Made by a program: the position numbers and the translations under genes. From Patescibacteria group bacterium (GTDB lineage Bacteria; Patescibacteriota; Patescibacteriia; UBA1558; UBA10009): a stretch of 64,000 nt of DNA. Location of the stretch: positions 7,398 to 71,397 of the forward strand of contig JBAZSE010000004.1 in NCBI GenBank assembly GCA_041662565.1. Direction: 5' to 3'. Positions 5,127 to 57,619 of the stretch are shown piece by piece. The number at the start of each line of letters is the position of its first letter. Within the stretch, counting starts at the first letter, position 1. Below the pieces are notes generated by a model. It did not search any database. It saw only the letters and a program-made list of their open reading frames with translations, and had not been told where the DNA came from.

Positions 5127-5192
5127 AAGTTGTTACAATTATACCATTTTTAAATGTTTCTCTCAAATCAAGTTTTATGGTAAAATTAATTA

Positions 5193-7322
5193 ATGGTTAT
5201 CAATCTAAACTATTTTAAATTTTCTCTGTTGCTGTTAATTTTACTGGCTTTTAACATACTTAACTGGCCAGCAGCTGTAATTGCCTCACTCGCAGGCGCT
5301 TTATTTTTAATTTTTGCCGGTTTGGCCATTGGCAATTGGCTGTTTATAAAAAATTCCTGGACCTGTCGTTTTATTTACGGCCTCCTATTTACAGGAGTTT
5401 TCGCCGCTTTAATTAATACCGCGTTCTTTTATCTTTCTAAAATGGACCAAAATGCCCACTTGGCCACTTTAGTTTTAATTTTTATTTTAACAACCTTGGC
5501 TGTTAAAAAACATCCTTTAATTTTTAACTTAAGTTGGAAGTTCGTTTGGCCGCGCTTAAATTTAACCTTATTAACTCTGGGCTACGGTTTTTTTATTGCC
5601 CTAATGTTTTGGCTTATTTTTAAAGCTCAAACAATCGTTTCAATTCGTTCACCTTGGGAAACAATTACCCCACAGATTTTTTTGTTATATTTTTTGGCTA
5701 CTTTTATTCTCTATGCCATTATAAAATTTTCCCATAGCAATAAAACATTGTTTTTAGTTTGTCTGCATGCTTTTTTAAGTTTTAGCGTAGCGTTGATAAT
5801 TTATCGCTTGGGTTTTGATTATGATCCTTTTATTCATCGCGAAAATCTACGCCTTATAGCCAAAAACGGCACTTTGCTACCCAAGCCGTTTTATTATATC
5901 GGTCAATACGGCTTAATTATTTTTTTAAGTAAACTTTTAAAAATTGGCCTGGATAATCTGGATAAGTTGTTATTACCATTAATGTCGGCTGTTTATTTGC
6001 CCACTACCGTTTATTACGCTTTTAAAGATAACTTTAAGGCGGAAAACAAAAATGTTATTTTAACCGCCTTAACGATTTTACTTTTGCCTTTTGGCGGATT
6101 TATTTTAACCACCCCCCAAGCGCTGGCCAATCTTTTTTCTTTAATAACGATTTTGCTTTCTTTATACTACATTAACCATCCGCGTGTAGCGCTGTGGCCA
6201 TTGGCTTTATTGGTGATAATGGCTTTGGTTGTTCATCCTTTGGCGGGCTTGCCTTTATTTTTCTTTTTTGCAGTTTTGGCTTTTTACCAACATCGACAGA
6301 AAAAATTCCCCCTAACTGGAACAAGCAATTTGCCAAAAATAATCCATCAATCAATTCTTTGGGAAATAATTATTTTGGGATCTTTGGCCTTGCCTGTTGC
6401 TTTTTTGATCAATTCGTATACCCTATCCCAACTTAAAGTAACTCTTTCCAGTAGCTGGGTTGCCAATATTATCGCTTCACTTTCGCACCAAACTGCTTTG
6501 TTTTACTACCGGCCGTTTATTTCTTTAACCGATTTAGTTTACAGCTTTGGCAAAAACAGCACTTTAATTATTTTTGTTTTGGCTTTAACTGGATTATTTT
6601 TTGTGGTAAAACATCGGCAATTTAAGCCCTATTTTGCTTACTTAGCAGGATTTTTAATGCTGATAATGAACTACTTTTTGGTTAAAGGCATGATTTCATT
6701 TTTTTCTCTGCTTTCTTACGAACAAATCACCTATCCCAAACGCATATTGGAAATAAGTATCTATTTATTACTGCCCTTTATTATCATTTCTCTTTATCTT
6801 TTTTTCCAAAAATTACAACAGCAAAAATCAGCAGTTATTTTATTATCTTTTGTTTTATTGTCAGTAGGGCTTAGCTGTTCTTGGTACTTGGCTTATCCCA
6901 GAGTTGATAAAATATCCGAAGATCACGGCTATTCCAGCTCTCAAACCGATTTTAAAACAGTAAAATTTATTGATGAGTTACAAAAAAGCCAGCCCTATAT
7001 TGTGCTAGCTGCCCAGCCCGTTAGCGCCGCCGCCATTAGTTCTTTGGGCTTTAAATACTACTATAACGATAACTTTTTTTATCCGGTTCCTACCGCTAGC
7101 CGCTTATATGGGCTATACGAAGATTTGGCCTATGCTAAAGGCAATACCGGAGAAATTATTGCCACAGCCGGCTATTTAACCGGCGTTACAGATATTTATT
7201 TTGTTTTAAACAATTACTGGCTTAATGCTTCGGATTTGATTGAAAAGCACAAACAATCGGCCGACCAATGGTTTGCCATTGACGGTAAAAATTATATATT
7301 TAAATATCAAATTGGCAAATAA
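5193..7322 (+). CDS. Large polytopic membrane protein (more than 14 TM), unknown; possibly GT-C or polymerase-like
   Basis: 709 aa, highly hydrophobic. The only plus-strand gene in the first 28 kb. Confidence 0.45.
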   Translation: MVINLNYFKFSLLLLILLAFNILNWPAAVIASLAGALFLIFAGLAIGNWLFIKNSWTCRFIYGLLFTGVFAALINTAFFYLSKMDQNAHLATLVLIFILTTLAVKKHPLIFNLSWKFVWPRLNLTLLTLGYGFFIALMFWLIFKAQTIVSIRSPWETITPQIFLLYFLATFILYAIIKFSHSNKTLFLVCLHAFLSFSVALIIYRLGFDYDPFIHRENLRLIAKNGTLLPKPFYYIGQYGLIIFLSKLLKIGLDNLDKLLLPLMSAVYLPTTVYYAFKDNFKAENKNVILTALTILLLPFGGFILTTPQALANLFSLITILLSLYYINHPRVALWPLALLVIMALVVHPLAGLPLFFFFAVLAFYQHRQKKFPLTGTSNLPKIIHQSILWEIIILGSLALPVAFLINSYTLSQLKVTLSSSWVANIIASLSHQTALFYYRPFISLTDLVYSFGKNSTLIIFVLALTGLFFVVKHRQFKPYFAYLAGFLMLIMNYFLVKGMISFFSLLSYEQITYPKRILEISIYLLLPFIIISLYLFFQKLQQQKSAVILLSFVLLSVGLSCSWYLAYPRVDKISEDHGYSSSQTDFKTVKFIDELQKSQPYIVLAAQPVSAAAISSLGFKYYYNDNFFYPVPTASRLYGLYEDLAYAKGNTGEIIATAGYLTGVTDIYFVLNNYWLNASDLIEKHKQSADQWFAIDGKNYIFKYQIGK

Positions 7323-7352
7323 AACATTTGCTAACGCGTTATTGAAGAAATT

Positions 7353-8246
7353 TTATTTTTTTTCCAAAATAACAATCCAGTGCCAATTTAACTTTTTAAT
7401 TAAGGGCAGTTGAAGCAGAATTTCATCAATTAGCAAAAACAGCCATTCAATTATCAGAGGGATGCGAATCCTTTTTTTAAGTTTAAACAAACGGTATAAC
7501 GCTTCCAAACCATAATGCAAAAAACCTTGCAAAAGCCAAACTCTTTTAAATTTAATTACCGATAAAGGAAGAGCTGCGATTAACCGCTGCCAATCGCGCT
7601 TATCATAGCCAGGATGAGTTTCATCGGCCTCCGAATGACCATGATGGATGCGCAATCGAGCACTGTTTTTAAACAACTTGGTAAAACTCATCATAAAACG
7701 CGAAGGTTCCATGGCGCAAATAATCATACCGCCTGGTTTAACAACTCTAAACATTTCCTGCAAAGCGATATCCTGGCGCTCAAAATGATGCAGCGATGCC
7801 ACGATAAAAACCGCATTTACCGAATTATCAGGCAAGGGCAAATTTTGACCATCGGCTACCAAATAAATTACCTGTGAAGAATGTTGCGGATATTTTTCAT
7901 TGATTTTTTGTTTAATGCCCGAAATCGACTCCGGGCTGATATCGGAAACTATCAAATTATATCCCATTTTAAGCAAGGATAAAGAGTCATATCCGCTACC
8001 GGCACCAATTTCTAAAATAATCGAATTGTTGGAAAAACCGGAAAAATATTTTTTAAAATAATCGTGATAATAAGTATTGCGCAAAGAATTCAATTGGTGC
8101 ACTTCTTCTTCATCCTGATGAATGGCATTATGAAATAATATTTCTTGCTGTTGAAATTGGGTAACTTTGGGCAAATAAAAAAATAACCCGGCTTGATTAT
8201 CGCATTTAATTTTTAAATCTTGGTTTACTTTTTCAAATTCCTGCAT
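7353..8246 (-). CDS. Class I SAM-dependent methyltransferase
   Basis: Motif I ILEIGAGSGYDSLSL with an acidic post-I residue (VSDISPE). Confidence 0.65.
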   Translation of the reverse strand: MQEFEKVNQDLKIKCDNQAGLFFYLPKVTQFQQQEILFHNAIHQDEEEVHQLNSLRNTYYHDYFKKYFSGFSNNSIILEIGAGSGYDSLSLLKMGYNLIVSDISPESISGIKQKINEKYPQHSSQVIYLVADGQNLPLPDNSVNAVFIVASLHHFERQDIALQEMFRVVKPGGMIICAMEPSRFMMSFTKLFKNSARLRIHHGHSEADETHPGYDKRDWQRLIAALPLSVIKFKRVWLLQGFLHYGLEALYRLFKLKKRIRIPLIIEWLFLLIDEILLQLPLIKKLNWHWIVILEKK

Positions 8247-37765: not shown

Positions 37766-38839
37766 ATGCTAAACAATCAAAATTTTCCTCAACAAATTAA
37801 GATCGGCAACCGAACAATCGGCCTTAACGAACCAACCCTTTTTATTGCCGATATCGGAGCCAATTTTGACCGCGATTTAACCAAAGCCAAAAAACTGGCT
37901 TTAGCGGCCAAAGATGCCGGAGCTGATGTGGTTAAATTTCAAACATTTAAGGCCGACAAAATAGTTTCCGGCCCCAGCTTTGCCAAAATGCAATTAAAAG
38001 GCGTTCATGGCTCTTGGAACAAGCCAATCAATGAGGTTTTTGCCGCAGCGGAGTTCCCTCGCGAATGGCATAAGGAATTAATGGATTATTGCCACGAAAT
38101 TGGAGTAATGTTCAATTCCTCACCATATGATTTTGAAGCGGTAGATTTATTGGAAGAATTGAATGTGGAATTTTATAAAATAGGTTCCGGTGAAATTACC
38201 TGGCATGAAATGCTCCAATACATTGCTAAAAAAAATAAACCCATGATTTTGGCCACAGGAGACAGCACCTTGGCGGAAGTAGATGAAGCAATAAGCGTGA
38301 TTGAAAAAACCGGCAACCGCAATTTAATTTTATTGCAATGCATTACCAATTATCCTTCCAAAATAGAAAGCGCCAATATTAATGTGCTTAAAACCTATCA
38401 AACCGCTTACAATATTTTAACCGGCTATTCTGATCACACACCCGGCGACATTGTTATCTTAGGTTCTATTGCCTTAGGCGGCCGTGTGGTTGAAAAACAC
38501 TTTACTTTAAATAAGAAGGATGCCGGACCAGACCATCCTCATTCCATGGAACCGGCTGAATTTAAATTAATGGTGGATCGGGCCAGATTGTTAGAAAAAG
38601 CTCTAGGTAGTACGCGTAAAGAAGTAGTGGAAGAAGAAACCGAAACCGTGATTGTCCAAAGAAGATCTTTGCATGTAACTAGGGATATGGCAGCCGGCGA
38701 AATAATTAAGGCAGAGGATATAATTGAACTTAGGCCGGCCGTAGGCATTTTGCCCAAATTTAAAAACTTGGTAGTTGGTCATAAGATTAAAAACAATTTA
38801 TTAAAGCATGAGGCCCTAACTTGGGAGAATTTGGAATAA
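37766..38839 (+). CDS. pseI: Nonulosonic acid synthase (NeuB/PseI family) with a C-terminal SAF domain
   Basis: FIADIGANFDRDLTKAKKLALAAKDAGADVVKFQTF (TIM-barrel NeuB) plus a C-terminal antifreeze-like SAF domain. Confidence 0.75.
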   Translation: MLNNQNFPQQIKIGNRTIGLNEPTLFIADIGANFDRDLTKAKKLALAAKDAGADVVKFQTFKADKIVSGPSFAKMQLKGVHGSWNKPINEVFAAAEFPREWHKELMDYCHEIGVMFNSSPYDFEAVDLLEELNVEFYKIGSGEITWHEMLQYIAKKNKPMILATGDSTLAEVDEAISVIEKTGNRNLILLQCITNYPSKIESANINVLKTYQTAYNILTGYSDHTPGDIVILGSIALGGRVVEKHFTLNKKDAGPDHPHSMEPAEFKLMVDRARLLEKALGSTRKEVVEEETETVIVQRRSLHVTRDMAAGEIIKAEDIIELRPAVGILPKFKNLVVGHKIKNNLLKHEALTWENLE

Positions 38840-44401: not shown

Positions 44402-45466
44402 ATGGATAAAATCAAAATTAAAACACCTCAAGGAATCAGATTGATCGGTCCAGGCGAATCGGCTTTTATTATCGCCGAAATGTCAGGCAATCATAATCAA
44501 TCATACCAAAACTGCCTTAAAATAATCGATGCCGCATTATCAGCCGGAGCCGATGCCATTAAATTACAAACTTACACCGCCGACACCTTAACTATCAACT
44601 GCGTTAACCGTTACTTTCAAATTACCAAACAAAAAAATTGGTCCGGCCAAACTTTATATGATTTATACAAAAAGGCCTATACTCCCTGGGATTGGCAGGC
44701 AAAATTAAAAAACTACGCCGAAAAAAAAGGCCTATTTTTCTTTTCTACGCCTTTTGACAAAACCGCGGTAGATTTTTTAGAAAAAATGAAAGTCCAAATT
44801 TATAAAATTGCCTCTTTTGAAATTGGCGATTTTCCTCTTTTAAAAAGAGTCGGCCAAACTAAAAAACCAGTAATTATTTCACGAGGCATGGCTACAGCCA
44901 AAGAAGTTGACTACGCCTTAAAAACTTTAAAAAAATATGGTTGCCCTCAGGTGGCGATTTTGCATTGCGTAAGTGCTTATCCCGCTCGTTCTGAAGAGAT
45001 GAATTTATTAACTATTCCCGATCTGACAAAAAAATTTAAAGTAATAACCGGTTTATCCGACCATAGCTTAGGCATTACCGCGGCTATTACCAGTATTGCC
45101 CTGGGAGCTAAAATCATTGAAAAACATTTAACTTTAAAACATTCAGACGGCGGTCCAGATGCGGCTTTTTCTTTGGAACCTCAAGAATTCAAAGATATGG
45201 TAGAGGGAGTCAGATTGGCCGAAAAATCCTTAGGACAACCATTTTACAACAAAACTGCCGGCGAAAAAAATAGCATAATCTTTAAAAAATCCCTTTTTAT
45301 CGTTAAAGATATTAAAAAAGGTGAAAAAATTACGGAAAAAAATATGCGTTCAATTAGGCCCGGCTATGGTTTGCCGCCAAAAAATTACGAACTAGTCCTG
45401 GGTAAAAAAATAAAAAATCATTACCCGGCTGGCACACCTCTTTCTTGGTCTAAACTAAATAAATAA
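44402..45466 (+). CDS. Second nonulosonic acid synthase paralogue (NeuB/PseI family) with SAF domain
   Basis: GESAFIIAEMSGNHNQSYQNCLKIIDAALSAGADAIKLQTY; C-terminal SAF domain. Clearly paralogous to 37766-38839. Confidence 0.75.
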   Translation: MDKIKIKTPQGIRLIGPGESAFIIAEMSGNHNQSYQNCLKIIDAALSAGADAIKLQTYTADTLTINCVNRYFQITKQKNWSGQTLYDLYKKAYTPWDWQAKLKNYAEKKGLFFFSTPFDKTAVDFLEKMKVQIYKIASFEIGDFPLLKRVGQTKKPVIISRGMATAKEVDYALKTLKKYGCPQVAILHCVSAYPARSEEMNLLTIPDLTKKFKVITGLSDHSLGITAAITSIALGAKIIEKHLTLKHSDGGPDAAFSLEPQEFKDMVEGVRLAEKSLGQPFYNKTAGEKNSIIFKKSLFIVKDIKKGEKITEKNMRSIRPGYGLPPKNYELVLGKKIKNHYPAGTPLSWSKLNK

Positions 45467-49910: not shown

Positions 49911-51000
49911 AACCATCCCCTTTTTTGATTACCTACGGCAATACCGCATAATTAAACCAAAACTGAATATAGTTTTTGAGCGTGTTCTGGCTTCAGGCCA
50001 GCTTATTTTAGGACCAGAAGCGAAAAAGCTGGAAATTAATTTTGCCAAATATTTGGGCGCTAGACATGCCATAGGAGTTAATTCAGGCACCGATGCCTTA
50101 AAAATCGGCCTAAAGGCCTTAAAAATTGGCTCTGGAGACGAAGTTATTACGGTGGCTAACACCTTTATCGCCACAATTAGCGCCATTAGAGAGACGGGCG
50201 CAAAGCCGGTTTTCGTTGATATTAAGAATGACTTTACCATAAACGAAAAATTGATTGCCAAGGCCATTACCAAAAAAACCAAGGCAATCTTGCCGGTTCA
50301 TTTATACGGCCAGGCGGCCAATATGCCGACCATTATGGCGATTGCCAAAAAATATAAACTCAAAGTCATAGAAGATTGCGCTCAGTCCGTAGGCGCTAAA
50401 ATTGGTTCAAAATACACCGGCAGTTTTGGCCATCTTGCCTGCTTTAGCTTTTATCCCACCAAAAATTTAGGAGCTTATGGCGATGGTGGCATGATTGTTA
50501 CCAACAATAAAAAGCTGGCCCAAATTTGCCGGCAGTTACGCTGTTATGGCACAAGCAAAAAAAACTTTGCTGAACTTGAGGGTTATAATAGCCGTTTAGA
50601 TGAAGTTCAAGCGGCTATCTTGAGTGTTAAACTGAAACATTTAAACAAATGGAACAATCAACGCCACCGGATTGCCGAATATTATCTTAATAATATTCAT
50701 AACCAAAAAATCATACTGCCTCTTATAAAAAATCCGACAGGACATGCGTGGCATTTGTTTGTTGTGCAAGTAAAAAATAGGGATAAATTTATTCATCATC
50801 TTAAAGCAAACAAAATTGATTATGGCATTCATTACCAGTATCCTATTTTTGAGCAAACTGCCTACAAATTTTTGAAGGTCAAAAAAACGGACTTTCCTCA
50901 AACAAGTTCCGTAGCCAAAAAGATCGTTTCTTTACCTATGTTTCCGGAATTAACCAAGGCAGAAATGGCTTATATCGTTAAAAAACTCAATCAGTTTTAG
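49897..51000 (+). CDS. DegT/DnrJ/EryC1-family sugar aminotransferase (FdtB-like)
   Basis: FFDYLRQYR N-terminus, SFYPTKNLGAYGDGG PLP-lysine region. Confidence 0.75.
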   Translation: MSKNKTIPFFDYLRQYRIIKPKLNIVFERVLASGQLILGPEAKKLEINFAKYLGARHAIGVNSGTDALKIGLKALKIGSGDEVITVANTFIATISAIRETGAKPVFVDIKNDFTINEKLIAKAITKKTKAILPVHLYGQAANMPTIMAIAKKYKLKVIEDCAQSVGAKIGSKYTGSFGHLACFSFYPTKNLGAYGDGGMIVTNNKKLAQICRQLRCYGTSKKNFAELEGYNSRLDEVQAAILSVKLKHLNKWNNQRHRIAEYYLNNIHNQKIILPLIKNPTGHAWHLFVVQVKNRDKFIHHLKANKIDYGIHYQYPIFEQTAYKFLKVKKTDFPQTSSVAKKIVSLPMFPELTKAEMAYIVKKLNQF

Positions 51001-52064
51001 CCAAAAAAATCTTCAATGATCTTAACCAGATGTTTGCCTAAAACTTCGGGCGATAGCTTGGTAATAAATGTCTGGTAGCCGTTCCGGGCTATTTTTTTAG
51101 TTAATTCAGGATCATTTTTTAAAATCATTATTTTATCGGCCAAATCCTGCGGATCAGCTGCTTTAACAAAAAGGCAATTTTGGCCATCTGTTAAAATTTC
51201 CCGATTGCTCTTGGAATCGCGGGTAATGTAAGGCAAAGCCAAAGCCAATGACTCAAAGGTTTTATTTTGAATCGTCCGCTCCAGGCGGATATGTTCCGAA
51301 AACTGCCCTAAACAGATATGTGATGCCAACATCTTGGCTCGCAAATCATCATCCGATAAATAGTCGGTAATCAACTCCAGATTGGTAACCTGGAGTGTGG
51401 CGATTTTTTCCTTAACTTTTGGGATATAGGCGCCATGACCGATTAAAATAAATTTGATATGCTCTTTTTCTAACAATTTTGCCGCCTCAATCACGTATTC
51501 CACGCCAGTGGCCGGTAAAAACCAACCCCTAAAAATAACGGTAAATTCTTCAAATTTGGCAATAGCCGGATCAGGGTAAAATAACGCTTCATCGGCACCG
51601 GTAAAAATTACTTTGAATTTTTTAGGATTTGCCAAAAAAAACTTTGTTAAAAATTTTTTTTGTTCTTCGCTTTCCACTAAAATCAAATGGGCTGTTTTAT
51701 AGGCCAGCCAATCAATCAACCAAAAATACAAAGAGTGCAAGGAAATGGGCTTATGTTCCTGCCGATCCAAAATAATGCTTTCGTACTTTGAACACAAGGC
51801 GTTATAAACTACTCTTTTAGAAGAAATTAATCTGGCTAGCGGTGCCATTAAATTGCTTTGATAGCCCACAAACATCAAATCGTAATCATGACGAATTTTC
51901 CAATGCTGTTTAAAAACCCGCCAATATTTTAGCAAGCCGCGAGAATTATCCCAAACCTCCAATACTTCCCAGCCCTGTTGTTTAAGGCCTTTTAAATAAA
52001 CCAAATCTCTGGGCCACCGGGGCTTAGCTAAACCAAAGTAACAAATTTTTAGTGGTTTATTCAT
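50997..52064 (-). CDS. Glycosyltransferase family 4; intact paralogue of the split GT4 at 54995/53461
   Basis: 355 aa, N- and C-terminal Rossmann halves. Its stop codon overlaps the stop of the convergent plus-strand gene (4-nt overlap). Confidence 0.65.
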   Translation of the reverse strand: MNKPLKICYFGLAKPRWPRDLVYLKGLKQQGWEVLEVWDNSRGLLKYWRVFKQHWKIRHDYDLMFVGYQSNLMAPLARLISSKRVVYNALCSKYESIILDRQEHKPISLHSLYFWLIDWLAYKTAHLILVESEEQKKFLTKFFLANPKKFKVIFTGADEALFYPDPAIAKFEEFTVIFRGWFLPATGVEYVIEAAKLLEKEHIKFILIGHGAYIPKVKEKIATLQVTNLELITDYLSDDDLRAKMLASHICLGQFSEHIRLERTIQNKTFESLALALPYITRDSKSNREILTDGQNCLFVKAADPQDLADKIMILKNDPELTKKIARNGYQTFITKLSPEVLGKHLVKIIEDFFG

Positions 52065-52076
52065 AGTGTTATAATT

Positions 52077-52222
52077 GGTGGCATATATTTTATTTTTTCA
52101 CTGCGGAACTCGCCAGTGTACGTCTCGTTGATTCAGCCATTAGCTCCTTTTGTCATTTTACTCCGAACATTTTTTAGAGTGCTCACACAAGTCCTCGTTT
52201 CAAAAATAAAATATATGCCACC
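52077..52222. repeat. Intergenic element with perfect 21-bp terminal inverted repeats (GGTGGCATATATTTTATTTTT ... AAAAATAAAATATATGCCACC) flanking a 104-bp GC-richer core
   Basis: Seen directly. The core contains a CACTG...CAGTG hairpin. On the minus strand it holds a 16-codon micro-ORF (52090-52140) preceded by AAAGGAG. Confidence 0.5.
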
Positions 52223-52233
52223 AGTTTATTAAA

Positions 52234-52887
52234 TTATTTAATAGCAATTTTAACAATAAACCGATAAGCAAACAAACCTGGCCAAATTTTTACCAACTGC
52301 TTAGTGCCCCTGGTTGGCGCGTGATTATCAATTTCAATTATTCGATACCCCGAATCAGCAATCATTTTTTTAAAACTGGCCCACGAAAAAAAATGAATAT
52401 GGCTTTTATCCATAATCCCCTGGTTGGTGTAATTAAACTGGCCAAAAAATATTTTTAAACGATTTTTCCAAAACAATAAATTTGGCACGGTAATTAAAAT
52501 CTCTTTATCTGCCTGAGGCAATTCTTTAAGCTTGATTAATAAGTTTTCCGGTTCAAACAAATGTTCCAAAACTTCCGAAAGCACAATAGCATCGTAATTA
52601 TTTTGCCTTAATTCTTCGGGCCAATTTACAATTTCATCTTCCAGATTGAATTGCCAGGCATTATCCAATACCTGTTTGGCTTCATGCACTGCTTGAGCGG
52701 AAATATCCGTGCCAAAAAATCGGCAGGGCATTAATTTTTTTACCTCTTGGCCTAAAATACCATTACTGCAACCAATATCCAAAATAGTTTTATGAGAGTT
52801 TTGGGTCAACCAGCGAATAATCGCGTTTTTACGGTAATCATTAATTTTATGATACTTGGCGCCTTGATAATATTGATCCAGTGACAT
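52234..52887 (-). CDS. Class I SAM-dependent methyltransferase
   Basis: Motif I ILDIGCSNGILG. Confidence 0.6.
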   Translation of the reverse strand: MSLDQYYQGAKYHKINDYRKNAIIRWLTQNSHKTILDIGCSNGILGQEVKKLMPCRFFGTDISAQAVHEAKQVLDNAWQFNLEDEIVNWPEELRQNNYDAIVLSEVLEHLFEPENLLIKLKELPQADKEILITVPNLLFWKNRLKIFFGQFNYTNQGIMDKSHIHFFSWASFKKMIADSGYRIIEIDNHAPTRGTKQLVKIWPGLFAYRFIVKIAIK

Positions 52888-52894
52888 AAATTGA

Positions 52895-53461
52895 TTAAAA
52901 TAAATCCTTAATTAATTTTTCAGCTATCACAACTGGCCTGCAAAATTGATGGTATAATTTATAACCACCGCTGGCAATTGTTTTTCGTAAATCATGATTG
53001 TTTTTTAATAAAATAATCTTTTCAGCTAAATCTTTGGCATTGGCTCTTTGGCATAATAAAATATTATTTTGATCGTAAAACAATTCTTTTATCGCCGGGG
53101 TATTGGCTGTAATCACCGGTTTAACGCAGGCAATGGCTTCGTATATTTTATTAGGAATTACTCTCAAAGTTTTTTCGGTTTCTCCAAAAATTCCCAAGCA
53201 CAGATCATATTTTTTTATCCGCAAGGGCATTTCAATAAATGGCACTTGTCCGGCAAAACAAATATTTGTTAAACCGAGTTTTTTTGCTAATGAAATTGAT
53301 TCTTGATATGTTTGTCCGTCACCGATTAACTCAAAATTGATATCAGAATCAAATTCTAAAATTTTAGCCGCCTCAATTATATAAGGCACCCCCTGTAACG
53401 GGATAACCTTGCCCCAAAATCCGACTATGAATTTTTTGCTTAAATTAATCTCTCTTTCCAT
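52895..53461 (-). CDS. C-terminal (Glycos_transf_1) half of a split GT4 glycosyltransferase
   Basis: 188 aa. Aligns along its length with the C-terminal domain of the 50997-52064 GT4 (IEAAKILE/IEAAKLLE, LKNNHDLRK/LKNDPELTK). ATG start; overlaps the 3' end of the epimerase gene by 22 nt. Confidence 0.6.
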   Translation of the reverse strand: MEREINLSKKFIVGFWGKVIPLQGVPYIIEAAKILEFDSDINFELIGDGQTYQESISLAKKLGLTNICFAGQVPFIEMPLRIKKYDLCLGIFGETEKTLRVIPNKIYEAIACVKPVITANTPAIKELFYDQNNILLCQRANAKDLAEKIILLKNNHDLRKTIASGGYKLYHQFCRPVVIAEKLIKDLF

Positions 53462-54480
53462 GTTCGTGGGGTATCAACTGTTTCAAGCTCCAAATTATCC
53501 AAATACTTGGGTTGCTCATAACCCACTTCCCTAGCCCAAACCAACATTTGCCTTAAGCCATCCCTTAAGGGAGTTTTGGGTTCATAATTAAGCAACTGCT
53601 TGGCTTTTTGATTGGAAGAAAAAGCATTTTTAACTTCTTGAGGCCTATCCGGCAAATGAATAGGATCAAATTTAGCCCTATCTTCGGCTTGAGGAAAAAA
53701 TTCTTCCAAAATGATATTGGATAATTCATTAATGGTAATTTCTTCTTCCGGACCGATATTAATAATTTCTTGATGCAAATTATCCATAAAACCCGCTTCG
53801 GCCATGGGTGGCACGCAATCATCAATGTAGGTAAATGCCCTTTTTTGATTGCCGTCGCCGTAAATATAGTACGGTTTGTTTTCAAGCAGTTTATTAATAA
53901 AAATGCCAACAACATTACGGTACGGATCGGCTTTATTTTGTCTTGGTCCATAAACATTATGCGGCCGGATAACGGTAAATTCAAAATTATGAACCTCGGC
54001 TAAAATTTTGGTGGCCTGTTCCATAGAGGCCTTAGAGATAGCGTAAATATCTTCCGGCCTGGTGGGCATACTTTCGGTAAACGGCGGTTCTTGATTGCCG
54101 TAAACCGACATGGAGCTAGTTAAGAGCATCTTTTTTAAACCGTTTTTAATGGCGGGAATCAGTAAATTTAAATACGAAAAATAATTCCGTTCCGTGCATT
54201 CTTGAGGTGTAAATTGGCTGCGACCTTCGGTGGCATCGGCTGCCAGATGGTAAATTAAATCGGGCTTAATTTTATTAATGTAATCGGCGGTAGCTTGTTT
54301 ATCACGCAAATCCAAAACCGTAAACTGTGATTTTGGATTAACATTTCTCATGTATCCTCCGGATAAATCATCCAAACCAAAAACATTACAACCTTTGGCA
54401 ATTAAATAATCCACCAAATGGCTGCCCATAAAGCCGGCCGCGCCGGTAACCAATACTCTTTGGTATTTATTGTAATTCAT
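53440..54480 (-). CDS. NAD-dependent sugar epimerase/dehydratase-family protein, located between the two halves of a split GT4
   Basis: VLVTGAAGFMGSHLVDYL, YAISKASME (YxxxK), TSSMSVYG; 346 aa. Confidence 0.7.
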   Translation of the reverse strand: MNYNKYQRVLVTGAAGFMGSHLVDYLIAKGCNVFGLDDLSGGYMRNVNPKSQFTVLDLRDKQATADYINKIKPDLIYHLAADATEGRSQFTPQECTERNYFSYLNLLIPAIKNGLKKMLLTSSMSVYGNQEPPFTESMPTRPEDIYAISKASMEQATKILAEVHNFEFTVIRPHNVYGPRQNKADPYRNVVGIFINKLLENKPYYIYGDGNQKRAFTYIDDCVPPMAEAGFMDNLHQEIINIGPEEEITINELSNIILEEFFPQAEDRAKFDPIHLPDRPQEVKNAFSSNQKAKQLLNYEPKTPLRDGLRQMLVWAREVGYEQPKYLDNLELETVDTPRTWKERLI

Positions 54481-54500
54481 AAAAAATTTCTATTAATATT

Positions 54501-54995
54501 TTATTTAAAAATCGCATCATCGGCGCCAATTAAAACCTTAATAAATTTAGGTCTAGGAAGATCAAAGGTTTTAACAAAATAATCAATATGGGCATTGGTA
54601 TCCAACAGTATTTTATCAGCAAATCGGCAATTTAGCCACTCCATAAGCCAATAATAAAACGCTTTTAAACTAACCGGTTTAACCAGTTGGCGATCATAAA
54701 CATAAGCGTCATACAATGAATAAAAAGCATCCCACACCAATAACTTTTTAAACAACAATCTTAAAGCAATTACTGCCCATCTAGAATCGGAATAGCCAAC
54801 AATAACCAAATCAAACTTTTTCTTACTTGCTTTAAATTCTTGTAACAGTTTGATTTTTGCCGCAATCCCCTTGCCTACTGTGCGAAGCAAAATAACTTCT
54901 TGGCCATTGGCTTTTAGACCGCTAATCAAAACTCGATTGCGGGCATAATTAGGATCAAAATCCCCAAAATAGCAAATTGTTTTTTTATCTGTCAT
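54501..54995 (-). CDS. N-terminal half of a split GT4 glycosyltransferase
   Basis: 164 aa from ATG 54995 (track start 55010 is TTG). Aligns with the N-terminal domain of the 50997-52064 GT4 (ICYFG, VGY, DRQ-KP-SL, WL, GAD-A-F) and ends exactly at the interdomain linker. Confidence 0.6.
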   Translation of the reverse strand: MTDKKTICYFGDFDPNYARNRVLISGLKANGQEVILLRTVGKGIAAKIKLLQEFKASKKKFDLVIVGYSDSRWAVIALRLLFKKLLVWDAFYSLYDAYVYDRQLVKPVSLKAFYYWLMEWLNCRFADKILLDTNAHIDYFVKTFDLPRPKFIKVLIGADDAIFK

Positions 54996-56142
54996 GAAAA
55001 ATAAATTCAATTATTTTTTTGGCCCTTGCTTGCCAGCTAAAACTAAATGAAAGTTCATGCGCAGCTTGGGCTTTTTTTTCAGCCGATTCTTGATTATTAA
55101 ACACCTGCGTTATCACTTTAGCCAAATCCTGAGGATCACTTGGTTTACAAAACCAGGCAGTTTCATCGGTTAAAATTTCTCTAATACTGGGCAAATCAGT
55201 AGCAATAATGGGTTTTGTGGCCGCCAAATATTCAAACATTTTTAACGGCGCCATAAAATATTTATAATGGGCTTTATTAGGAAATGGCATTAGTAAAGCA
55301 TCGGCCGCTTTTTGAAAATAACCCAAACTAGCTTGACTAACATGTGGCAATAATTTTACTTGCTCACCTACACCCAGCAGATCAGCCAATGCCTGGTATT
55401 CCTTAATGCTTTGTTCTGTACCGCCTACGGCTATAAAAAATAATGATTTATCGCTTAATATTTGCAAGGCGTGTAAAATTTCCTTTAAACCCTTATCCTG
55501 ACCCATGGTTTTAAAACTGCCGGTATATAGCAGAATTTTTTTATCAACCAAATTAACCAGATCCAATTTTTTTAAGGCCTGCTCTTTGGAAATATTTAAA
55601 TCAAACAATTCTTTATCCACCCCATGCGGGCAAACTAAAATTTTCTTATCTTCAAAAAAATTTTTAACAAATTCGTGTTTAAGATAGTTATTGGTAACAA
55701 TAATTTTATCCGCATTTTTAATAAGTTTTAGAGCAACATTTTTGCTTTTACCAAACCATTCATGGCTTTCAAAAACCACTTTATAACCCTTGATCTTAAA
55801 TAACCAGGCAATTTCTGGCTTGCGGGTATAAATAACTGCATCCTTATCCAGAGTTAAAAAATACAATTTACTTAAAAAAAACAAACTTTGCAACAGATAA
55901 CTAAATTTTTTTAAATACCGATCAAACTGAATAAAATCAGAGCTGTTGATTTGCCGTAAAGTAAAATTATTTTTTAAATTATAATACGAAACAACATCCT
56001 GGGTTATGGGATTTTTTCTGGTAGGCCAAAGCAAAGTAACATCAGCACCAGCAGCTGCAAATTCGGAGCACATCTTCACTATTTGATGGCCATGGGCTTT
56101 TTCGGTTGGTAACCGTGAATTGGTGATATAAATCAATTTCAT
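54985..56142 (-). CDS. Glycosyltransferase family 4
   Basis: 385 aa, GT-B; C-terminal FPNKAHYKYFMAPLKMFEYLAATKPIIATD. Confidence 0.7.
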   Translation of the reverse strand: MKLIYITNSRLPTEKAHGHQIVKMCSEFAAAGADVTLLWPTRKNPITQDVVSYYNLKNNFTLRQINSSDFIQFDRYLKKFSYLLQSLFFLSKLYFLTLDKDAVIYTRKPEIAWLFKIKGYKVVFESHEWFGKSKNVALKLIKNADKIIVTNNYLKHEFVKNFFEDKKILVCPHGVDKELFDLNISKEQALKKLDLVNLVDKKILLYTGSFKTMGQDKGLKEILHALQILSDKSLFFIAVGGTEQSIKEYQALADLLGVGEQVKLLPHVSQASLGYFQKAADALLMPFPNKAHYKYFMAPLKMFEYLAATKPIIATDLPSIREILTDETAWFCKPSDPQDLAKVITQVFNNQESAEKKAQAAHELSFSFSWQARAKKIIEFIFHDR

Positions 56143-56894
56143 ATTTTACCGTACTTAACTATGCCTTTAAATTGAATCATGCTCACTGGTCGATCAACGG
56201 CATTGCGGGGCATTTCCAGCAAATCAACACCGTGTTTTACCAAACCCGGCTTAACGGTTAGTGCTGTTTTATAAAACTTTCCCGCTGATTTTTTAACCTG
56301 CTCATTGTAACGGCCGGTAGGATAAGCCAAGACAGAAACTTTTTTGCTTAACAATTTTTCCAAAATTATTTGCGATTCACTTAATTCTTCTTCGGCTTTG
56401 GCAATTGCCAATTGATGTAATTTTTGATGATGATGGCAATGTGAGCCAAAATCGATCAAGCCCGATTGATTCATGGCCAAAATTTCTTTCTCCGACAATA
56501 ATGCCAATTTTGATCCTCCTCTCGCCACTCTAAATCCTCCTAAATCGGCAGTATTAACAAAGATGGTAGCCGGAAAGTTATAGCGCTGTAAAATCGGATA
56601 GGCCTCGTTATAATTATCCAAATAACCGTCATCAAAAGTTATCACAACGGTTTTTTTTAAAAAATTGCCGCCCGATTGCAAAATATCCAAACAATCTGCT
56701 AAGCTGATCACTTTAAAATTATTATCAGCCAAATAAGCCATTTGCTGGGCAAAATTAGCCGGAGTTGTTTGAAAAAATTCCCCCTCCTGGCCAATAGAAT
56801 GGTACATTAAAATAATTGCCCTATTTTTAGGATAAGGCAAAACCAATTGGCAAAAAAAATAGATAAGATCTTTAATAATGCTTTTGATAAACAT
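56139..56894 (-). CDS. Polysaccharide deacetylase (NodB/CE4 family)
   Basis: VVITFDDGYLDNYNEAYPILQRYNFPATIF. The track start is TTG (56909); ATG 56894 is preferred. Confidence 0.7.
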   Translation of the reverse strand: MFIKSIIKDLIYFFCQLVLPYPKNRAIILMYHSIGQEGEFFQTTPANFAQQMAYLADNNFKVISLADCLDILQSGGNFLKKTVVITFDDGYLDNYNEAYPILQRYNFPATIFVNTADLGGFRVARGGSKLALLSEKEILAMNQSGLIDFGSHCHHHQKLHQLAIAKAEEELSESQIILEKLLSKKVSVLAYPTGRYNEQVKKSAGKFYKTALTVKPGLVKHGVDLLEMPRNAVDRPVSMIQFKGIVKYGKI

Positions 56895-56992
56895 CAATGA
56901 AAAAGGCAAATTTAAGCTTAATTTTTTCTAAATATCCCAAATATTATAACATTTCCTTATCTTTTTTTAAAGATTGACAAAAACGATATATT

Positions 56993-57619
56993 ATGATAAT
57001 GTGCAAAGAATTGCTTCATTTGAAAAATCATAATAATACTTTTCATTACGGAGGGCTCGTGGGAAAACCACAGATATTGCCAAACGCCGGCGAACACAGA
57101 AAAATCGCCGGTAAGTATGGCAAGTCATTGATTGAGCAGGATTTTGAAAATCCGCACACCGGCCAGATTGAGACCTTTTCTCTGTTAGTTCAGAAGGATT
57201 GGTCTGTTGTTCTGGCCCTTACCTGCGGCAATCAGGTTCTGGTTGTTAACGAATTCAAGCAAGGGCGAAACTCGATCGAACGCGAGTTATCAGCTGGCAC
57301 AGCTGATTTTAACGAATCGCCCAGCGAAGTGATGAAACGCGAACTGTTGCAGGAAACCGGCTACCAAGCTGGCGAACTGATTAGTTTGGGTTTCGGCTGG
57401 ATGGCTACTCGTAATTCGCCTACCAAGGCGCATTTGTTTTTGGCCACCGGCTGCCAAAAAACACAACCAGCCAAACTTGATACCAGTGAGGTTATTGAAA
57501 CCGAACTGATACCCTTGAATGATTGGATCCAATTGGTGGTTGATGGCCAAATCAACGAATGGTCCGCTGTTATGGCAACTGTTCGAGCATTACCCCATCT
57601 TGGACTGCGAATTTCTTAG
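56993..57619 (+). CDS. NUDIX hydrolase; compositionally atypical (about 50% GC against about 35% locally)
   Basis: Nudix box ELSAGTADFNESPSEVMKRELLQETGY. GC counted directly on a 68-nt stretch gave about 53%. The true start may lie downstream of 56993. Confidence 0.65.
   Translation: MIMCKELLHLKNHNNTFHYGGLVGKPQILPNAGEHRKIAGKYGKSLIEQDFENPHTGQIETFSLLVQKDWSVVLALTCGNQVLVVNEFKQGRNSIERELSAGTADFNESPSEVMKRELLQETGYQAGELISLGFGWMATRNSPTKAHLFLATGCQKTQPAKLDTSEVIETELIPLNDWIQLVVDGQINEWSAVMATVRALPHLGLRIS

What the first reader, a model, noticed from the sequence alone, without database searches (positions are those of the whole stretch)
52895..55010. GT4 glycosyltransferase split at its interdomain linker into two ORFs, with an epimerase gene inserted between them
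ORF 54501-54995 (minus strand) is a complete GT-B N-terminal Rossmann domain. ORF 52895-53461 (minus strand) is a complete GT-B C-terminal (Glycos_transf_1) domain. Each aligns, block for block, with the matching half of the intact 355-aa GT4 at 50997-52064, 1 kb away on the same strand. The N-half stops right after ...IGADDAIFK and the C-half starts MEREINLSKKFIVGFWG..., which corresponds to ...TGADEALFYPD / ...FTVIFRGWF in the intact paralogue. That is exactly the flexible interdomain linker, the same place where eukaryotic Alg13/Alg14 and streptococcal Cps14F/G-type two-polypeptide glycosyltransferases are split. Between the halves, on the same strand, lies a complete 346-aa NAD-dependent epimerase gene whose 3' end overlaps the C-half start by 22 nt. 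Both halves have clean ATG starts and full-length domains, so this looks like a functional two-subunit GT with a nucleotide-sugar-modifying enzyme encoded inside the split. That could be a substrate-channelling unit rather than a pseudogene.
Basis: partly seen in the sequence, partly recalled or inferred. Interest (0 to 1): 0.75.

Follow-up and report, generated by a model that had tools for sequence, protein, structure and literature searches.

The report
Split glycosyltransferase with nested epimerase gene
A sugar-transferring enzyme of an uncultured Patescibacteria bacterium is encoded as two separate half-genes with a sugar-epimerase gene lodged between them; related genomes show the arrangement is conserved and under selection, so it appears to be a working two-piece enzyme rather than a broken gene.

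Summary
On the minus strand lie a 164-aa GT4 N-domain (54501-54995), a 346-aa GalE-like epimerase (53440-54480) and a 188-aa GT4 C-domain (52895-53461). The epimerase and C-domain overlap by 22 nt. The halves match residues 1-162 and 172-348 of the intact paralogue (E about 1e-28). Joined end to end they are colinear with fused orthologues and model as a canonical GT-B (pLDDT 95.7).

It is not a pseudogene or a misassembly. The N/epimerase/C order recurs in nine divergent Patescibacteria loci, and dN/dS is 0.05-0.15 for all three cistrons. Fused orthologues are still the majority (25 of about 28 species representatives).

The substrate-channelling idea finds no support. Two lineages have deleted the epimerase, leaving scars, yet kept both halves under selection. 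The epimerase family is very large and occurs in unrelated clusters. No N-Epi-C single chain was found.

One new point: the C-half's only possible start codon lies inside the epimerase's conserved C-terminal Thr-Trp codons. The same embedded ATG is the annotated start of an unrelated downstream gene (YfhO) elsewhere, and both deletion scars retain it.

Verdict: a natural two-polypeptide GT4. It is analogous to Alg14/Alg13 but not a member of that family, so it is a new variant of a known kind.

The parts
56139..56909 (-). Polysaccharide deacetylase gene, apparently the first cistron of the operon. The best promoter-like site lies just upstream, at 56943-56971 on the minus strand.
   Evidence: PF01522 E=1.7e-25. 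TTTAAA-17-TATAAT with TG extension at 56971-56943. The same gene heads the cluster in L086.
54985..56142 (-). Intact 385-aa GT4 glycosyltransferase of a different subfamily. It overlaps the N-half start by 11 nt.
   Evidence: PF00534 E=1.4e-19 and PF13439 E=2.8e-7. A syntenic GT of 398-406 aa lies upstream of the N-half in L086 and L088.
54501..54995 (-). N-half: a stand-alone GT-B N-terminal (acceptor-side) Rossmann domain, 164 aa, ending ...IGADDAIFK* in the interdomain linker.
   Evidence: 35% identity to residues 1-162 of the intact paralogue, E=9e-29. AF2 pLDDT 92.5, and Foldseek's top hits are GT4 N-domains. There are 64 homologues, nearly all 141-172 aa, and the 39 aligned all end at the same linker position.
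54481..54500 (-). 20-nt AT-rich spacer between the N-half stop and the epimerase ATG. It contains no terminator.
   Evidence: Sequence read directly. No minus-strand terminator-like site between 56816 and 50997. In relatives this spacing ranges from a 4-nt overlap to a 26-nt spacer.
53440..54480 (-). Nested 346-aa extended-SDR nucleotide-sugar epimerase, GalE-like and probably a 4-epimerase. It carries a C-terminal extension of about 29 aa ending ...TPRTWKERLI*.
   Evidence: PF01370 E=7.6e-52. Best solved relative is the UDP-glucose 4-epimerase 4zrm, E=1.7e-45, covering residues 6-317. It scores below every NCBIfam equivalog cut-off. GxxGxxG (VTGAAGFMGS) and YxxxK (YAISK) are read from the sequence.
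53440..53461 (-). 22-nt dual-coding overlap. The epimerase tail codons T-W-K-E-R-L-I-stop are read one base out of frame as the C-half start M-E-R-E-I-N-L. The ATG is formed by acA TGg of the Thr-Trp codons.
   Evidence: Sequence read directly. It is the only ATG/GTG/TTG in the C-half ORF upstream of the first conserved strand. An identical 22-nt overlap occurs in L086, L088, L036, L090, L092 and L094. The same embedded ATG is the annotated start of YfhO downstream of the epimerase in L095.
52895..53461 (-). C-half: a stand-alone GT-B C-terminal (nucleotide-sugar donor-side) domain, 188 aa.
   Evidence: PF00534 E=8.6e-19. 34% identity to residues 172-348 of the paralogue, E=2e-28. About 25 stand-alone homologues of 184-197 aa, several apparently on the same contigs as N-halves, judging by matching contig lengths.
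52234..52887 (-). Class I SAM-dependent methyltransferase, a conserved neighbour directly downstream of the C-half.
   Evidence: PF13489 E=9.2e-15. Same position in L001, L036, L086 and L088.
50997..52064 (-). Intact (fused) 355-aa paralogue of the split GT. It is the last gene of the cluster on this strand.
   Evidence: PF00534 E=5.5e-16. About 35% identity to both halves. A syntenic intact paralogue of 339-358 aa is present in L001, L086 and L088.

Best explanation
This is a natural gene fission of a GT4 (GT-B fold) glycosyltransferase at its interdomain linker, with a GalE-like nucleotide-sugar epimerase cistron sitting between the two half-genes.

The seven genes from 56909 to 50997 (deacetylase, GT4, N-half, epimerase, C-half, methyltransferase, paralogous GT4) are probably one transcript. 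This is inferred from the absence of an internal terminator and from gaps of -22 to +20 nt, apart from one 169-nt gap.

The N-half (acceptor domain) and C-half (donor domain) are made as separate polypeptides. They are inferred to reassemble non-covalently into a normal two-lobed GT-B enzyme, as Alg14/Alg13 and EpsE/EpsF do.

The C-half can only start at an ATG embedded out of frame in the epimerase's conserved C-terminal Thr-Trp codons, 22 nt before the epimerase stop. Its translation is therefore most likely coupled to that of the epimerase. This embedded start belongs to the epimerase family itself, which explains how an epimerase cistron could sit inside the GT gene without silencing the downstream half.

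The epimerase probably supplies the donor sugar for a transferase in the cluster. That is ordinary operon logic, and the epimerase is not required to maintain the split.

Shown here: anatomy, conservation, purifying selection, fold compatibility, deletion scars, and the embedded start in an unrelated context.
Inferred: physical assembly of the halves, catalytic activity, translational coupling, co-transcription.
For: 1. Complementary halves: E=9e-29 and 2e-28 against the intact paralogue. N+C joined end to end is colinear, without gaps, with 14 fused orthologues.

2. Fold: the joined sequence models as a canonical GT-B (pLDDT 95.7, pTM 0.92), and the only weak stretch is at the junction. Best PDB matches are the GT4 enzymes PglA (E=8.5e-19), HepE, GlgM (TMq 0.82), PimB', MshA and BshA.

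3. Recurrence of N/Epi/C: seen in the window, L086, L088/L089, L036, L090, L091, L092, L094 and L004/L011. These come from independent assemblies, with N-half identity down to 53%.

4. Selection: dN/dS is 0.05-0.15 for N, Epi and C at dS>1.3.

5. The split survives loss of the epimerase. L087 retains a 26-codon in-frame scar (MDYKKYQKILVTGSANMPRTWKEKLI*) whose junction lies in a 5-6-nt microhomology. L093 retains degenerate remnants of both epimerase ends. Both scars keep the tail that carries the C-half ATG. In L087 dN/dS is still 0.11-0.15.

6. Start codon: the embedded ATG is the only possible start in seven loci. In Levybacteria locus L095 the same epimerase family overlaps an unrelated YfhO gene by the same 22 nt, with the YfhO ATG inside the T-W codons. 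69 of the 120 closest epimerase homologues end in a TW[KR]xxL[I/M]-type tail.

7. Operon: no internal terminator on the coding strand, and the best promoter-like site lies upstream of the deacetylase gene.

8. Precedent: separately expressed GT-B N- and C-domains auto-assemble into active dimers (PMC10937113). Alg14/Alg13 and EpsE/EpsF are natural two-polypeptide GT-B enzymes (PMC8993221).
Against: - No direct evidence that the halves bind each other or are active. The AF2 model was of an artificial single chain whose alignment included fused homologues, so it shows compatibility only, not assembly.
- An intact paralogue in the same operon could in principle make the split copy dispensable. 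However, that paralogue is only about 35% identical and is itself conserved alongside the split copy.
- No Shine-Dalgarno-like motif precedes any start in the operon, so the coupling mechanism is inferred.
- Start sites are gene-caller or ORF-based. None has been verified at protein level.
- dS is saturated, so the dN/dS values are approximate.
- In L094 the N-half is separated from Epi-C by an opposite-strand gene, so co-transcription of the two halves is not universal.
- Most orthologues are fused (25 of about 28 GTDB representatives). The split therefore confers no obvious general advantage.
Confidence: 0.72

Rival explanations
1. Substrate-channelling unit. The N-half, epimerase and C-half form a ternary complex in which the epimerase hands its product directly to the transferase, and the nested gene order exists to enforce that assembly.
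For: The N/Epi/C order is conserved in nine loci. An epimerase of the same type also sits directly upstream of a fused orthologue in L031, so the Epi-GT association predates the split. The epimerase is the most conserved of the three cistrons (85% against 72% and 68% identity between the window and L086).
Against: The epimerase was deleted twice while the halves remained under selection. The epimerase family is very large, about 60% identical across phyla, and occurs in unrelated clusters such as GT2/YfhO in L095. No N-Epi-C single-chain fusion was found. The 22-nt overlap is a generic property of the epimerase gene. L001 has adjacent halves with no epimerase between them.
Confidence: 0.1
2. 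Decaying pseudogene. The GT was inactivated by insertion of the epimerase gene, and the intact paralogue 830 nt downstream does the work.
For: An intact paralogue is present in the same operon. Most orthologues elsewhere are fused. Real degraded copies also exist: L003 has a homopolymer frameshift and L020 a frameshift inside the C-domain.
Against: Both halves have dN/dS of about 0.1 across saturated synonymous divergence. Both ORFs stay intact in at least 11 divergent loci. Stand-alone halves fill dozens of 90%-identity clusters down to about 48% identity, and the 39 aligned N-halves all share the same C-terminus. Catalytic-domain motifs are invariant across split and fused members.
Confidence: 0.05
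3. The halves have diverged in function and act independently. For example, the C-half might act alone as a nucleotide-sugar-binding protein, or the N-half might partner the paralogous GT, rather than the two re-forming one enzyme.
For: In L094 the two halves lie in different transcription units. A paralogous intact GT is always nearby.
Against: In every locus examined the two halves co-occur. They evolve at similar rates. Residues invariant in fused orthologues remain invariant in both halves. A lone GT-B domain has no complete active site (established knowledge of GT-B enzymes).
Confidence: 0.1
4. A programmed -1 frameshift within the 22-nt overlap produces an epimerase-C-half fusion protein, so the C-half is not a free subunit.
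For: The C-half frame is -1 relative to the epimerase frame, and the overlap is conserved.
Against: The overlap contains no conserved X_XXY_YYZ slippery heptamer. The window has TGG AAA GAG AGA TTA, while others have TGG AAG AAA AAA CTA, which is out of register. L004 has no overlap at all. The scars in L087 and L093 keep the ATG but have no epimerase body.
Confidence: 0.02
5. Assembly or binning artefact: a chimeric contig has placed an epimerase inside a GT gene.
For: The source is a metagenome-assembled genome.
Against: An identical protein set is found on two contigs and in four source databases. The same architecture appears in independent assemblies from NCBI, JGI, ENA and Logan at 53-72% identity.
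Confidence: 0.01

Closest known systems
Alg14/Alg13 (eukaryotes) and EpsE/EpsF or Cps14F/Cps14G-type (bacteria, archaea) two-polypeptide GT-B glycosyltransferases
   Same: A GT-B enzyme is encoded as two polypeptides that correspond to the N-terminal (acceptor) and C-terminal (nucleotide-sugar) Rossmann domains, cut between the domains. That clade also shows a mix of split and fused forms, interpreted as one split followed by several re-fusions (PMC8993221).
   Different: - Different family. Those enzymes are MurG-like (GT1/GT28-related; Pfam Alg14 and Glyco_tran_28_C) and inverting. The halves here hit only GT4 profiles (Glycos_transf_1, with weak Glyco_transf_4), and there is no Alg14 or GT28_C hit at E<=10.
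- No membrane-anchor helix on the N-half.
- To my knowledge the genes in those systems are adjacent. Here another enzyme's gene lies between the halves, and the second half starts inside that gene.
Canonical single-chain GT4 retaining glycosyltransferases (PglA, HepE, GlgM, PimB', MshA, BshA, WbnH)
   Same: Same fold and family. The joined halves match these structures at Foldseek E=1e-19 to 1e-14 and TM up to 0.82. The best sequence match of the intact paralogue is PglA, E=3.8e-9.
   Different: Those enzymes are single polypeptides. Sequence identity is only 11-18%, so donor and acceptor specificity cannot be transferred.
Engineered split or chimeric GT-B enzymes ('mix and match' auto-assembly; PMC10937113)
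   Same: Separate N- and C-domain chains associate non-covalently to give an active GT-B. This is the behaviour inferred here.
   Different: Those are artificial constructs of plant or bacterial GT1-type enzymes. This case is a naturally evolved and selected split in GT4.
GalE-like extended-SDR UDP-hexose / UDP-HexNAc 4-epimerases (e.g. Thermotoga 4zrm)
   Same: The nested gene has the GxxGxxG and S...YxxxK signatures and aligns over residues 6-317 to 4zrm at E=1.7e-45.
   Different: It carries a C-terminal extension of about 29 aa ending TWKxxLI, whose codons contain an out-of-frame ATG used by the downstream gene. It falls below all NCBIfam equivalog cut-offs, so its substrate is unknown.

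Membership tests
GT4 / GT-B fold glycosyltransferase | C-terminal Glycos_transf_1 (PF00534) donor-binding domain | tested here: met
   C-half scores PF00534 E=8.6e-19, 68.2 bits against a 26.4-bit cut-off.
GT4 / GT-B fold glycosyltransferase | N-terminal Rossmann-like acceptor domain of GT4 type | tested here: met
   There is no significant Pfam hit; Glyco_transf_4 reaches only E=0.018. The AF2 model (pLDDT 92.5) has MshA, HepE, GlgM, PglA and WbnH N-domains as its top matches, with probability 1.00 and TMq 0.58-0.68.
GT4 / GT-B fold glycosyltransferase | Two domains that together form the bilobal GT-B architecture | tested here: met
   The joined N+C sequence models at pLDDT 95.7 and pTM 0.92, and whole-chain matches to GT4 structures have TMq up to 0.82. 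Caveat: it was modelled as one chain.
GT4 / GT-B fold glycosyltransferase | Catalytic or donor-binding acidic residues (EX7E-type motif) | tested here: inconclusive
   An invariant Glu (E290 in the joined numbering, in ...PAIKELF) and invariant N268-K269 are conserved in both split and fused members. I did not map them onto a solved active site. The first position of a classical EX7E is Arg in this family (read).
GT4 / GT-B fold glycosyltransferase | Transferase activity of the two-chain form | not testable with these tools
   Needs co-expression and an enzyme assay.
Alg14/Alg13 - EpsE/EpsF two-subunit glycosyltransferases | N-subunit belongs to the Alg14 family (PF08660) | tested here: not met
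   No Alg14 hit for the N-half even at E<=10.
Alg14/Alg13 - EpsE/EpsF two-subunit glycosyltransferases | C-subunit belongs to Glyco_tran_28_C (PF04101) | tested here: not met
   The C-half hits only the Glycos_transf_1 group of profiles.
Alg14/Alg13 - EpsE/EpsF two-subunit glycosyltransferases | Separate polypeptides for the N- and C-Rossmann domains, split at the interdomain boundary | tested here: met
   This is an architectural resemblance only.
Alg14/Alg13 - EpsE/EpsF two-subunit glycosyltransferases | Membrane-anchoring segment on the N-subunit | tested here: not met
   The N-half model begins directly with strand 6-11, and all its elements belong to the Rossmann fold, with no extra hydrophobic helix. 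No dedicated TM predictor was run.
Extended-SDR NDP-sugar 4-epimerase (GalE-like) | PF01370 domain with the GxxGxxG NAD site and the Ser...YxxxK catalytic signature | tested here: met
   PF01370 E=7.6e-52. VTGAAGFMGS, SSMSVYG and YAISK are read from the translation.
Extended-SDR NDP-sugar 4-epimerase (GalE-like) | Equivalog-level match to a characterised epimerase (GalE TIGR01179, TviC, etc.) | tested here: not met
   GalE scores 100.8 bits against a 262.3-bit cut-off, and LegB, TviC and RmlB are also below cut-off. Assigning 4-epimerase activity rests on the best PDB hit, 4zrm, and on the absence of the dehydratase Asp-Glu pair, which is my reading of the sequence.

The most novel reading that the evidence does not exclude
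The epimerase gene acts as a self-sufficient insertable cistron. Its conserved C-terminal tail carries an out-of-frame ATG that restarts translation of whatever lies downstream, and this let it lodge inside the GT linker without killing the C-half.

This may have happened more than once. Three epimerase subfamilies (only about 40% identical to each other) and two junction types (a 22-nt overlap starting ME[RE][EK]..., and MAL...) are found between N- and C-halves. A member of one of those subfamilies sits immediately upstream of a fused orthologue in L031. That arrangement is consistent with a tandem duplication of [Epi+N] followed by complementary loss.

On this reading the locus shows a general, repeatable route to gene fission through a neighbouring gene, and possibly a physical Epi-GT complex.
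Probability: 0.2. Interest if true: 0.75.

Novelty: new variant of a known kind. Interest (0 to 1): 0.5.

Why it matters
- **A second natural split GT-B.** If the two chains do assemble, this would be a naturally selected two-polypeptide GT-B outside the MurG/Alg13-14 lineage, and in GT4, one of the largest GT families. That would show the split-domain solution is general, and it would give enzyme engineers a natural pair of self-associating GT4 domains.
- **An annotation gap.** The N-half carries no Pfam or NCBIfam signature and is deposited as 'hypothetical protein'. The C-half is called a complete 'glycosyltransferase'. Dozens of Patescibacteria clusters are therefore mis-described.
- **An evolutionary series.** The related loci together show an apparent sequence of gene-fission states: fused with epimerase upstream, then N/Epi/C, then epimerase deletion scars, then directly abutting halves. 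They also show a start codon overprinted on a neighbouring gene's conserved tail.

Tried and rejected
1. **Single-chain N-Epi-C fusion as a 'Rosetta stone'.** The 680-730-aa hits from the exhaustive search are tandem GT4-GT4 fusions, and the shorter long hits are kinase-GT4 or GT2-GT4 fusions. None contains an epimerase domain.

2. **The 22-nt overlap as a shared derived character proving a single origin.** Rejected, because the same overlap and embedded ATG occur with an unrelated YfhO gene in L095.

3. **Monophyly of split forms.** On an NJ tree of concatenated N+C domains the split forms cluster loosely, but 0-1 of 200 bootstraps recover a fused-free clade. The number of fission events therefore remains unresolved. 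No ML tree software was available.

4. **P0059 / L003 as a split form.** It is a frameshift in a poly-A run within a fused gene. L020 is a frameshift inside the C-domain.

5. **Mobile-element insertion of the epimerase.** No flanking direct or inverted repeats above chance.

6. **Programmed -1 frameshift.** No conserved slippery site.

7. **Searches that failed.** The single-sequence scan of GTDB genomes found nothing; the alignment-based scan worked.

8. **Literature.** Searches for a described split GT4, or for this arrangement in Patescibacteria, found nothing relevant. The library is incomplete, so absence from it is weak evidence.

Full report
**Observation**

The minus strand of 50997-56909 carries seven tightly packed genes: a polysaccharide deacetylase, a 385-aa GT4, a 164-aa ORF (54501-54995), a 346-aa epimerase (53440-54480), a 188-aa ORF (52895-53461), a methyltransferase and a 355-aa GT4.

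The 164-aa ORF aligns to residues 1-162 of the 355-aa GT4 (35% identity, E=9e-29). The 188-aa ORF aligns to residues 172-348 (34%, E=2e-28). The epimerase stop and the C-half ATG overlap by 22 nt.

The N-half has no significant Pfam or NCBIfam hit. An AlphaFold model built on 39 homologues is confident (pLDDT 92.5), and its best PDB matches are the N-domains of the GT4 enzymes MshA, HepE, GlgM, PglA and WbnH.

**Is it one enzyme cut in two?**

Joining the two translations end to end gives a 352-aa sequence that aligns without gaps to fused orthologues. The split form reads ...IGADDAIFK|MEREIN--LSKKFIVGFWG and a fused form reads ...VGTDDKIFYPRESRER---PHAFTVHFHG.

The joined sequence models as a canonical GT-B (pLDDT 95.7, pTM 0.92). 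The only weak, unstructured stretch is about residues 154-175, which spans the junction. Its best structural matches are full-length GT4 enzymes: PglA at E=8.5e-19 and GlgM at TMq 0.82. This shows compatibility, not assembly, because the model was a single chain and fused homologues were in the alignment.

**Is the split maintained?**

A word-indexed search with the N-half returned 64 proteins, nearly all 141-172 aa, from Patescibacteria, with identity down to about 48%. The 39 that I aligned all end at the same linker position. A search with the C-half returned about 25 stand-alone proteins of 184-197 aa, several apparently on the same contigs as N-halves, judging by matching contig lengths.

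That list proved to be biased towards short proteins. An exhaustive phmmer search of 1.84 billion cluster representatives shows a family dominated by fused proteins of 340-370 aa, with roughly one in ten representatives of N-half length. Among GTDB species representatives, 25 Patescibacteria-type orthologues (41-56% identity) are intact fused ORFs, against three split ones. The split form is therefore a derived minority.

It is not decaying, however. dN/dS is 0.05-0.15 for the N-half, the epimerase and the C-half in every pair where it could be computed, at dS above 1.3.

**Is the nested epimerase conserved?**

The N/Epi/C order occurs in nine loci:
- the window
- L086 (JGI) and L088/L089 (Logan), both with the full Deac...GT/N/Epi/C/MT/GT order of the window
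- L036
- L090, L091 and L092
- L004/L011, Kaiserbacteria
- L094, where an opposite-strand NUDIX gene also separates the N-half from Epi-C

Three loci have the halves without an epimerase:

- **L087.** This is a 72%-identical relative. Its 83-nt spacer encodes MDYKKYQKILVTGSANMPRTWKEKLI*, which is the first 13 or so and last 10 or so codons of the epimerase joined in frame. The junction lies in a 5-6-nt microhomology.
- **L093.** Its 114-nt gap holds degenerate remnants of both epimerase ends, in different frames.
- **L001/L002/L008.** The two ORFs overlap directly and the linker is gone.

So the epimerase has been lost at least twice while the two-gene GT was kept, and in L087 the halves are still under purifying selection. 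Two apparent splits are artefacts or pseudogenes: L003 is a homopolymer frameshift and L020 is a frameshift inside the C-domain.

**The start codon inside the epimerase**

In the window, L086, L088, L036, L090, L092 and L094, the C-half ORF has exactly one possible start upstream of its first conserved strand. That start is the ATG formed by acA TGg of the Thr-Trp codons in the epimerase tail ...TP(R/K)TWK(E/K)(R/K)LI*, 22 nt before the epimerase stop. Both deletion scars retain exactly this tail.

The tail is native to the epimerase family:
- The solved GalE-like homologue 4zrm aligns only to residues 6-317.
- 69 of the 120 closest homologues end in a TW[KR]xxL[I/M]-type sequence.
- In Levybacteria locus L095 the same family precedes an unrelated YfhO gene with the same 22-nt overlap, and the YfhO ATG lies in the T-W codons (aCATGGgtagaaaaattaatgTAA gives MGRKINV...).

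The first seven residues of the C-half are therefore overprinted on the epimerase tail rather than inherited from the GT linker. The epimerase gene supplies the initiation site for whatever follows it.

I infer translational coupling. This is not shown, and no SD-like motif precedes any start in this operon. L004 and L091 use a second junction type, in which the C-half begins MAL... (ATGGCG). In L004 that start lies 1 nt after the epimerase stop, and in L091 it overlaps the stop by 10 nt.

**Origin**

The intervening epimerases fall into three groups:
- a core group at 57-85% identity
- L004, which is 67% identical to the L031 epimerase but about 41% to the core
- L091, at about 35-42% to all others

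L031 is informative. A tail-bearing epimerase sits immediately upstream of an intact fused orthologue there, so the Epi-GT neighbourhood predates the fission. One plausible but untested path is tandem duplication of [Epi+N] followed by loss of the redundant N and Epi copies.

NJ trees of the GT domains do not resolve whether fission happened once, with later re-fusions as proposed for Alg14/13-EpsE/F (PMC8993221), or several times. Within the roughly 6 kb sampled on either side of the GT match, no orthologous epimerase (at least 57% identity) was found at any of the 25 fused loci.

**What the epimerase and the GT do**

The epimerase is an extended SDR with GxxGxxG and S...YxxxK signatures. Its best match is a UDP-glucose 4-epimerase (E=1.7e-45), and it falls below every NCBIfam equivalog cut-off. 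Its family is very large, with more than 3,100 hits at E<1e-40 and about 60% identity across phyla.

The GT is a remote GT4. The intact paralogue's best sequence match is PglA (E=3.8e-9), and no donor or acceptor can be assigned.

The surrounding window encodes a nonulosonic-acid pathway (a PseB-like dehydratase, DegT aminotransferases, two NeuB homologues and a CMP-transferase), an FdtA-like isomerase and further transferases. The operon therefore belongs to a cell-surface glycan cluster.

**Comparison with known systems**

In architecture this works like Alg14/Alg13 and EpsE/EpsF. It is not a member of that family: there are no Alg14 or Glyco_tran_28_C hits at E<=10, there is no anchor helix, and the profiles and folds that match are GT4. 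Engineered split GT-B enzymes do self-assemble (PMC10937113).

I found no description of a natural split GT4 or of this nested arrangement. The paper library is incomplete, so this is weak evidence of absence.

**Verdict**

The 'functional two-subunit GT' reading is well supported by comparative evidence. The 'substrate-channelling' reading finds no support. This is a new variant of a known kind and of moderate interest. The overprinted start codon and the deletion-scar series are its most distinctive features.

Noticed in passing
L095:4001-5038 / 5017-7410 (Levybacteria; also L096): The same epimerase family overlaps a downstream YfhO-family membrane protein gene by exactly 22 nt, and the YfhO ATG is embedded in the epimerase's Thr-Trp codons. 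The tail-embedded start may be a widespread feature of this very large epimerase family and deserves a census.
   Followed up: partly
L094:4426-5492: An opposite-strand NUDIX hydrolase gene lies between the N-half and the epimerase/C-half pair, so the two GT halves are in different transcription units there. In the window a NUDIX gene (56993-57619, +) sits divergently upstream of the operon.
   Followed up: no
L001:2-994 (also L008, L002): A reverse-transcriptase (RVT_1) ORF of 322-330 aa ends 4 nt inside the start of the N-half gene, in the lineage where the two halves abut directly. It could be a group II intron, a retron or a DGR-type RT. Any relation to the rearrangement is unknown.
   Followed up: no
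L003:5400-5510: An apparent split (P0059) is really a frameshift in an A-rich homopolymer run (AAAAAAAACAAAAAAAA) within an otherwise fused orthologue. It is a sequencing error, a pseudogene or slippage.
   Followed up: partly
L004:964-2610 and L091:2208-3968: The GT4 gene immediately upstream of the N-half carries an N-terminal AAA_33 (kinase-like P-loop) domain fusion (548-586 aa). The exhaustive search also found fusions of this GT family with an AAA_33 domain or a GT2 domain, and tandem GT4-GT4 fusions.
   Followed up: no
window:35649-45466: A nonulosonic-acid (pseudaminic/legionaminic-type) pathway with two NeuB paralogues (37766-38839 and 44402-45466), a PseB-like dehydratase, DegT, a CMP-transferase, a class-III aminotransferase and a DUF4910/M28-like protein. 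This is an elaborate surface-glycan locus for a small Patescibacteria genome.
   Followed up: partly
window:46117-49480: Three consecutive ORFs (514, 280 and 325 aa) inside the glycan cluster have no Pfam hit at E<=1e-5. They may be uncharacterised transferases or polymerases.
   Followed up: no
window:58110-60400: A CysD/CysN-like pair (PAPS_reduct plus GTP_EFTU, a sulfate adenylyltransferase) lies next to the glycan operon and is syntenic in L086. L092 has a sulfotransferase in the same cluster. The glycan may be sulfated.
   Followed up: no
window:52065-52233: A 169-nt non-coding gap between the methyltransferase and the intact paralogue is the only sizeable intergenic space in the operon. 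It could hold an internal promoter or regulatory element.
   Followed up: no
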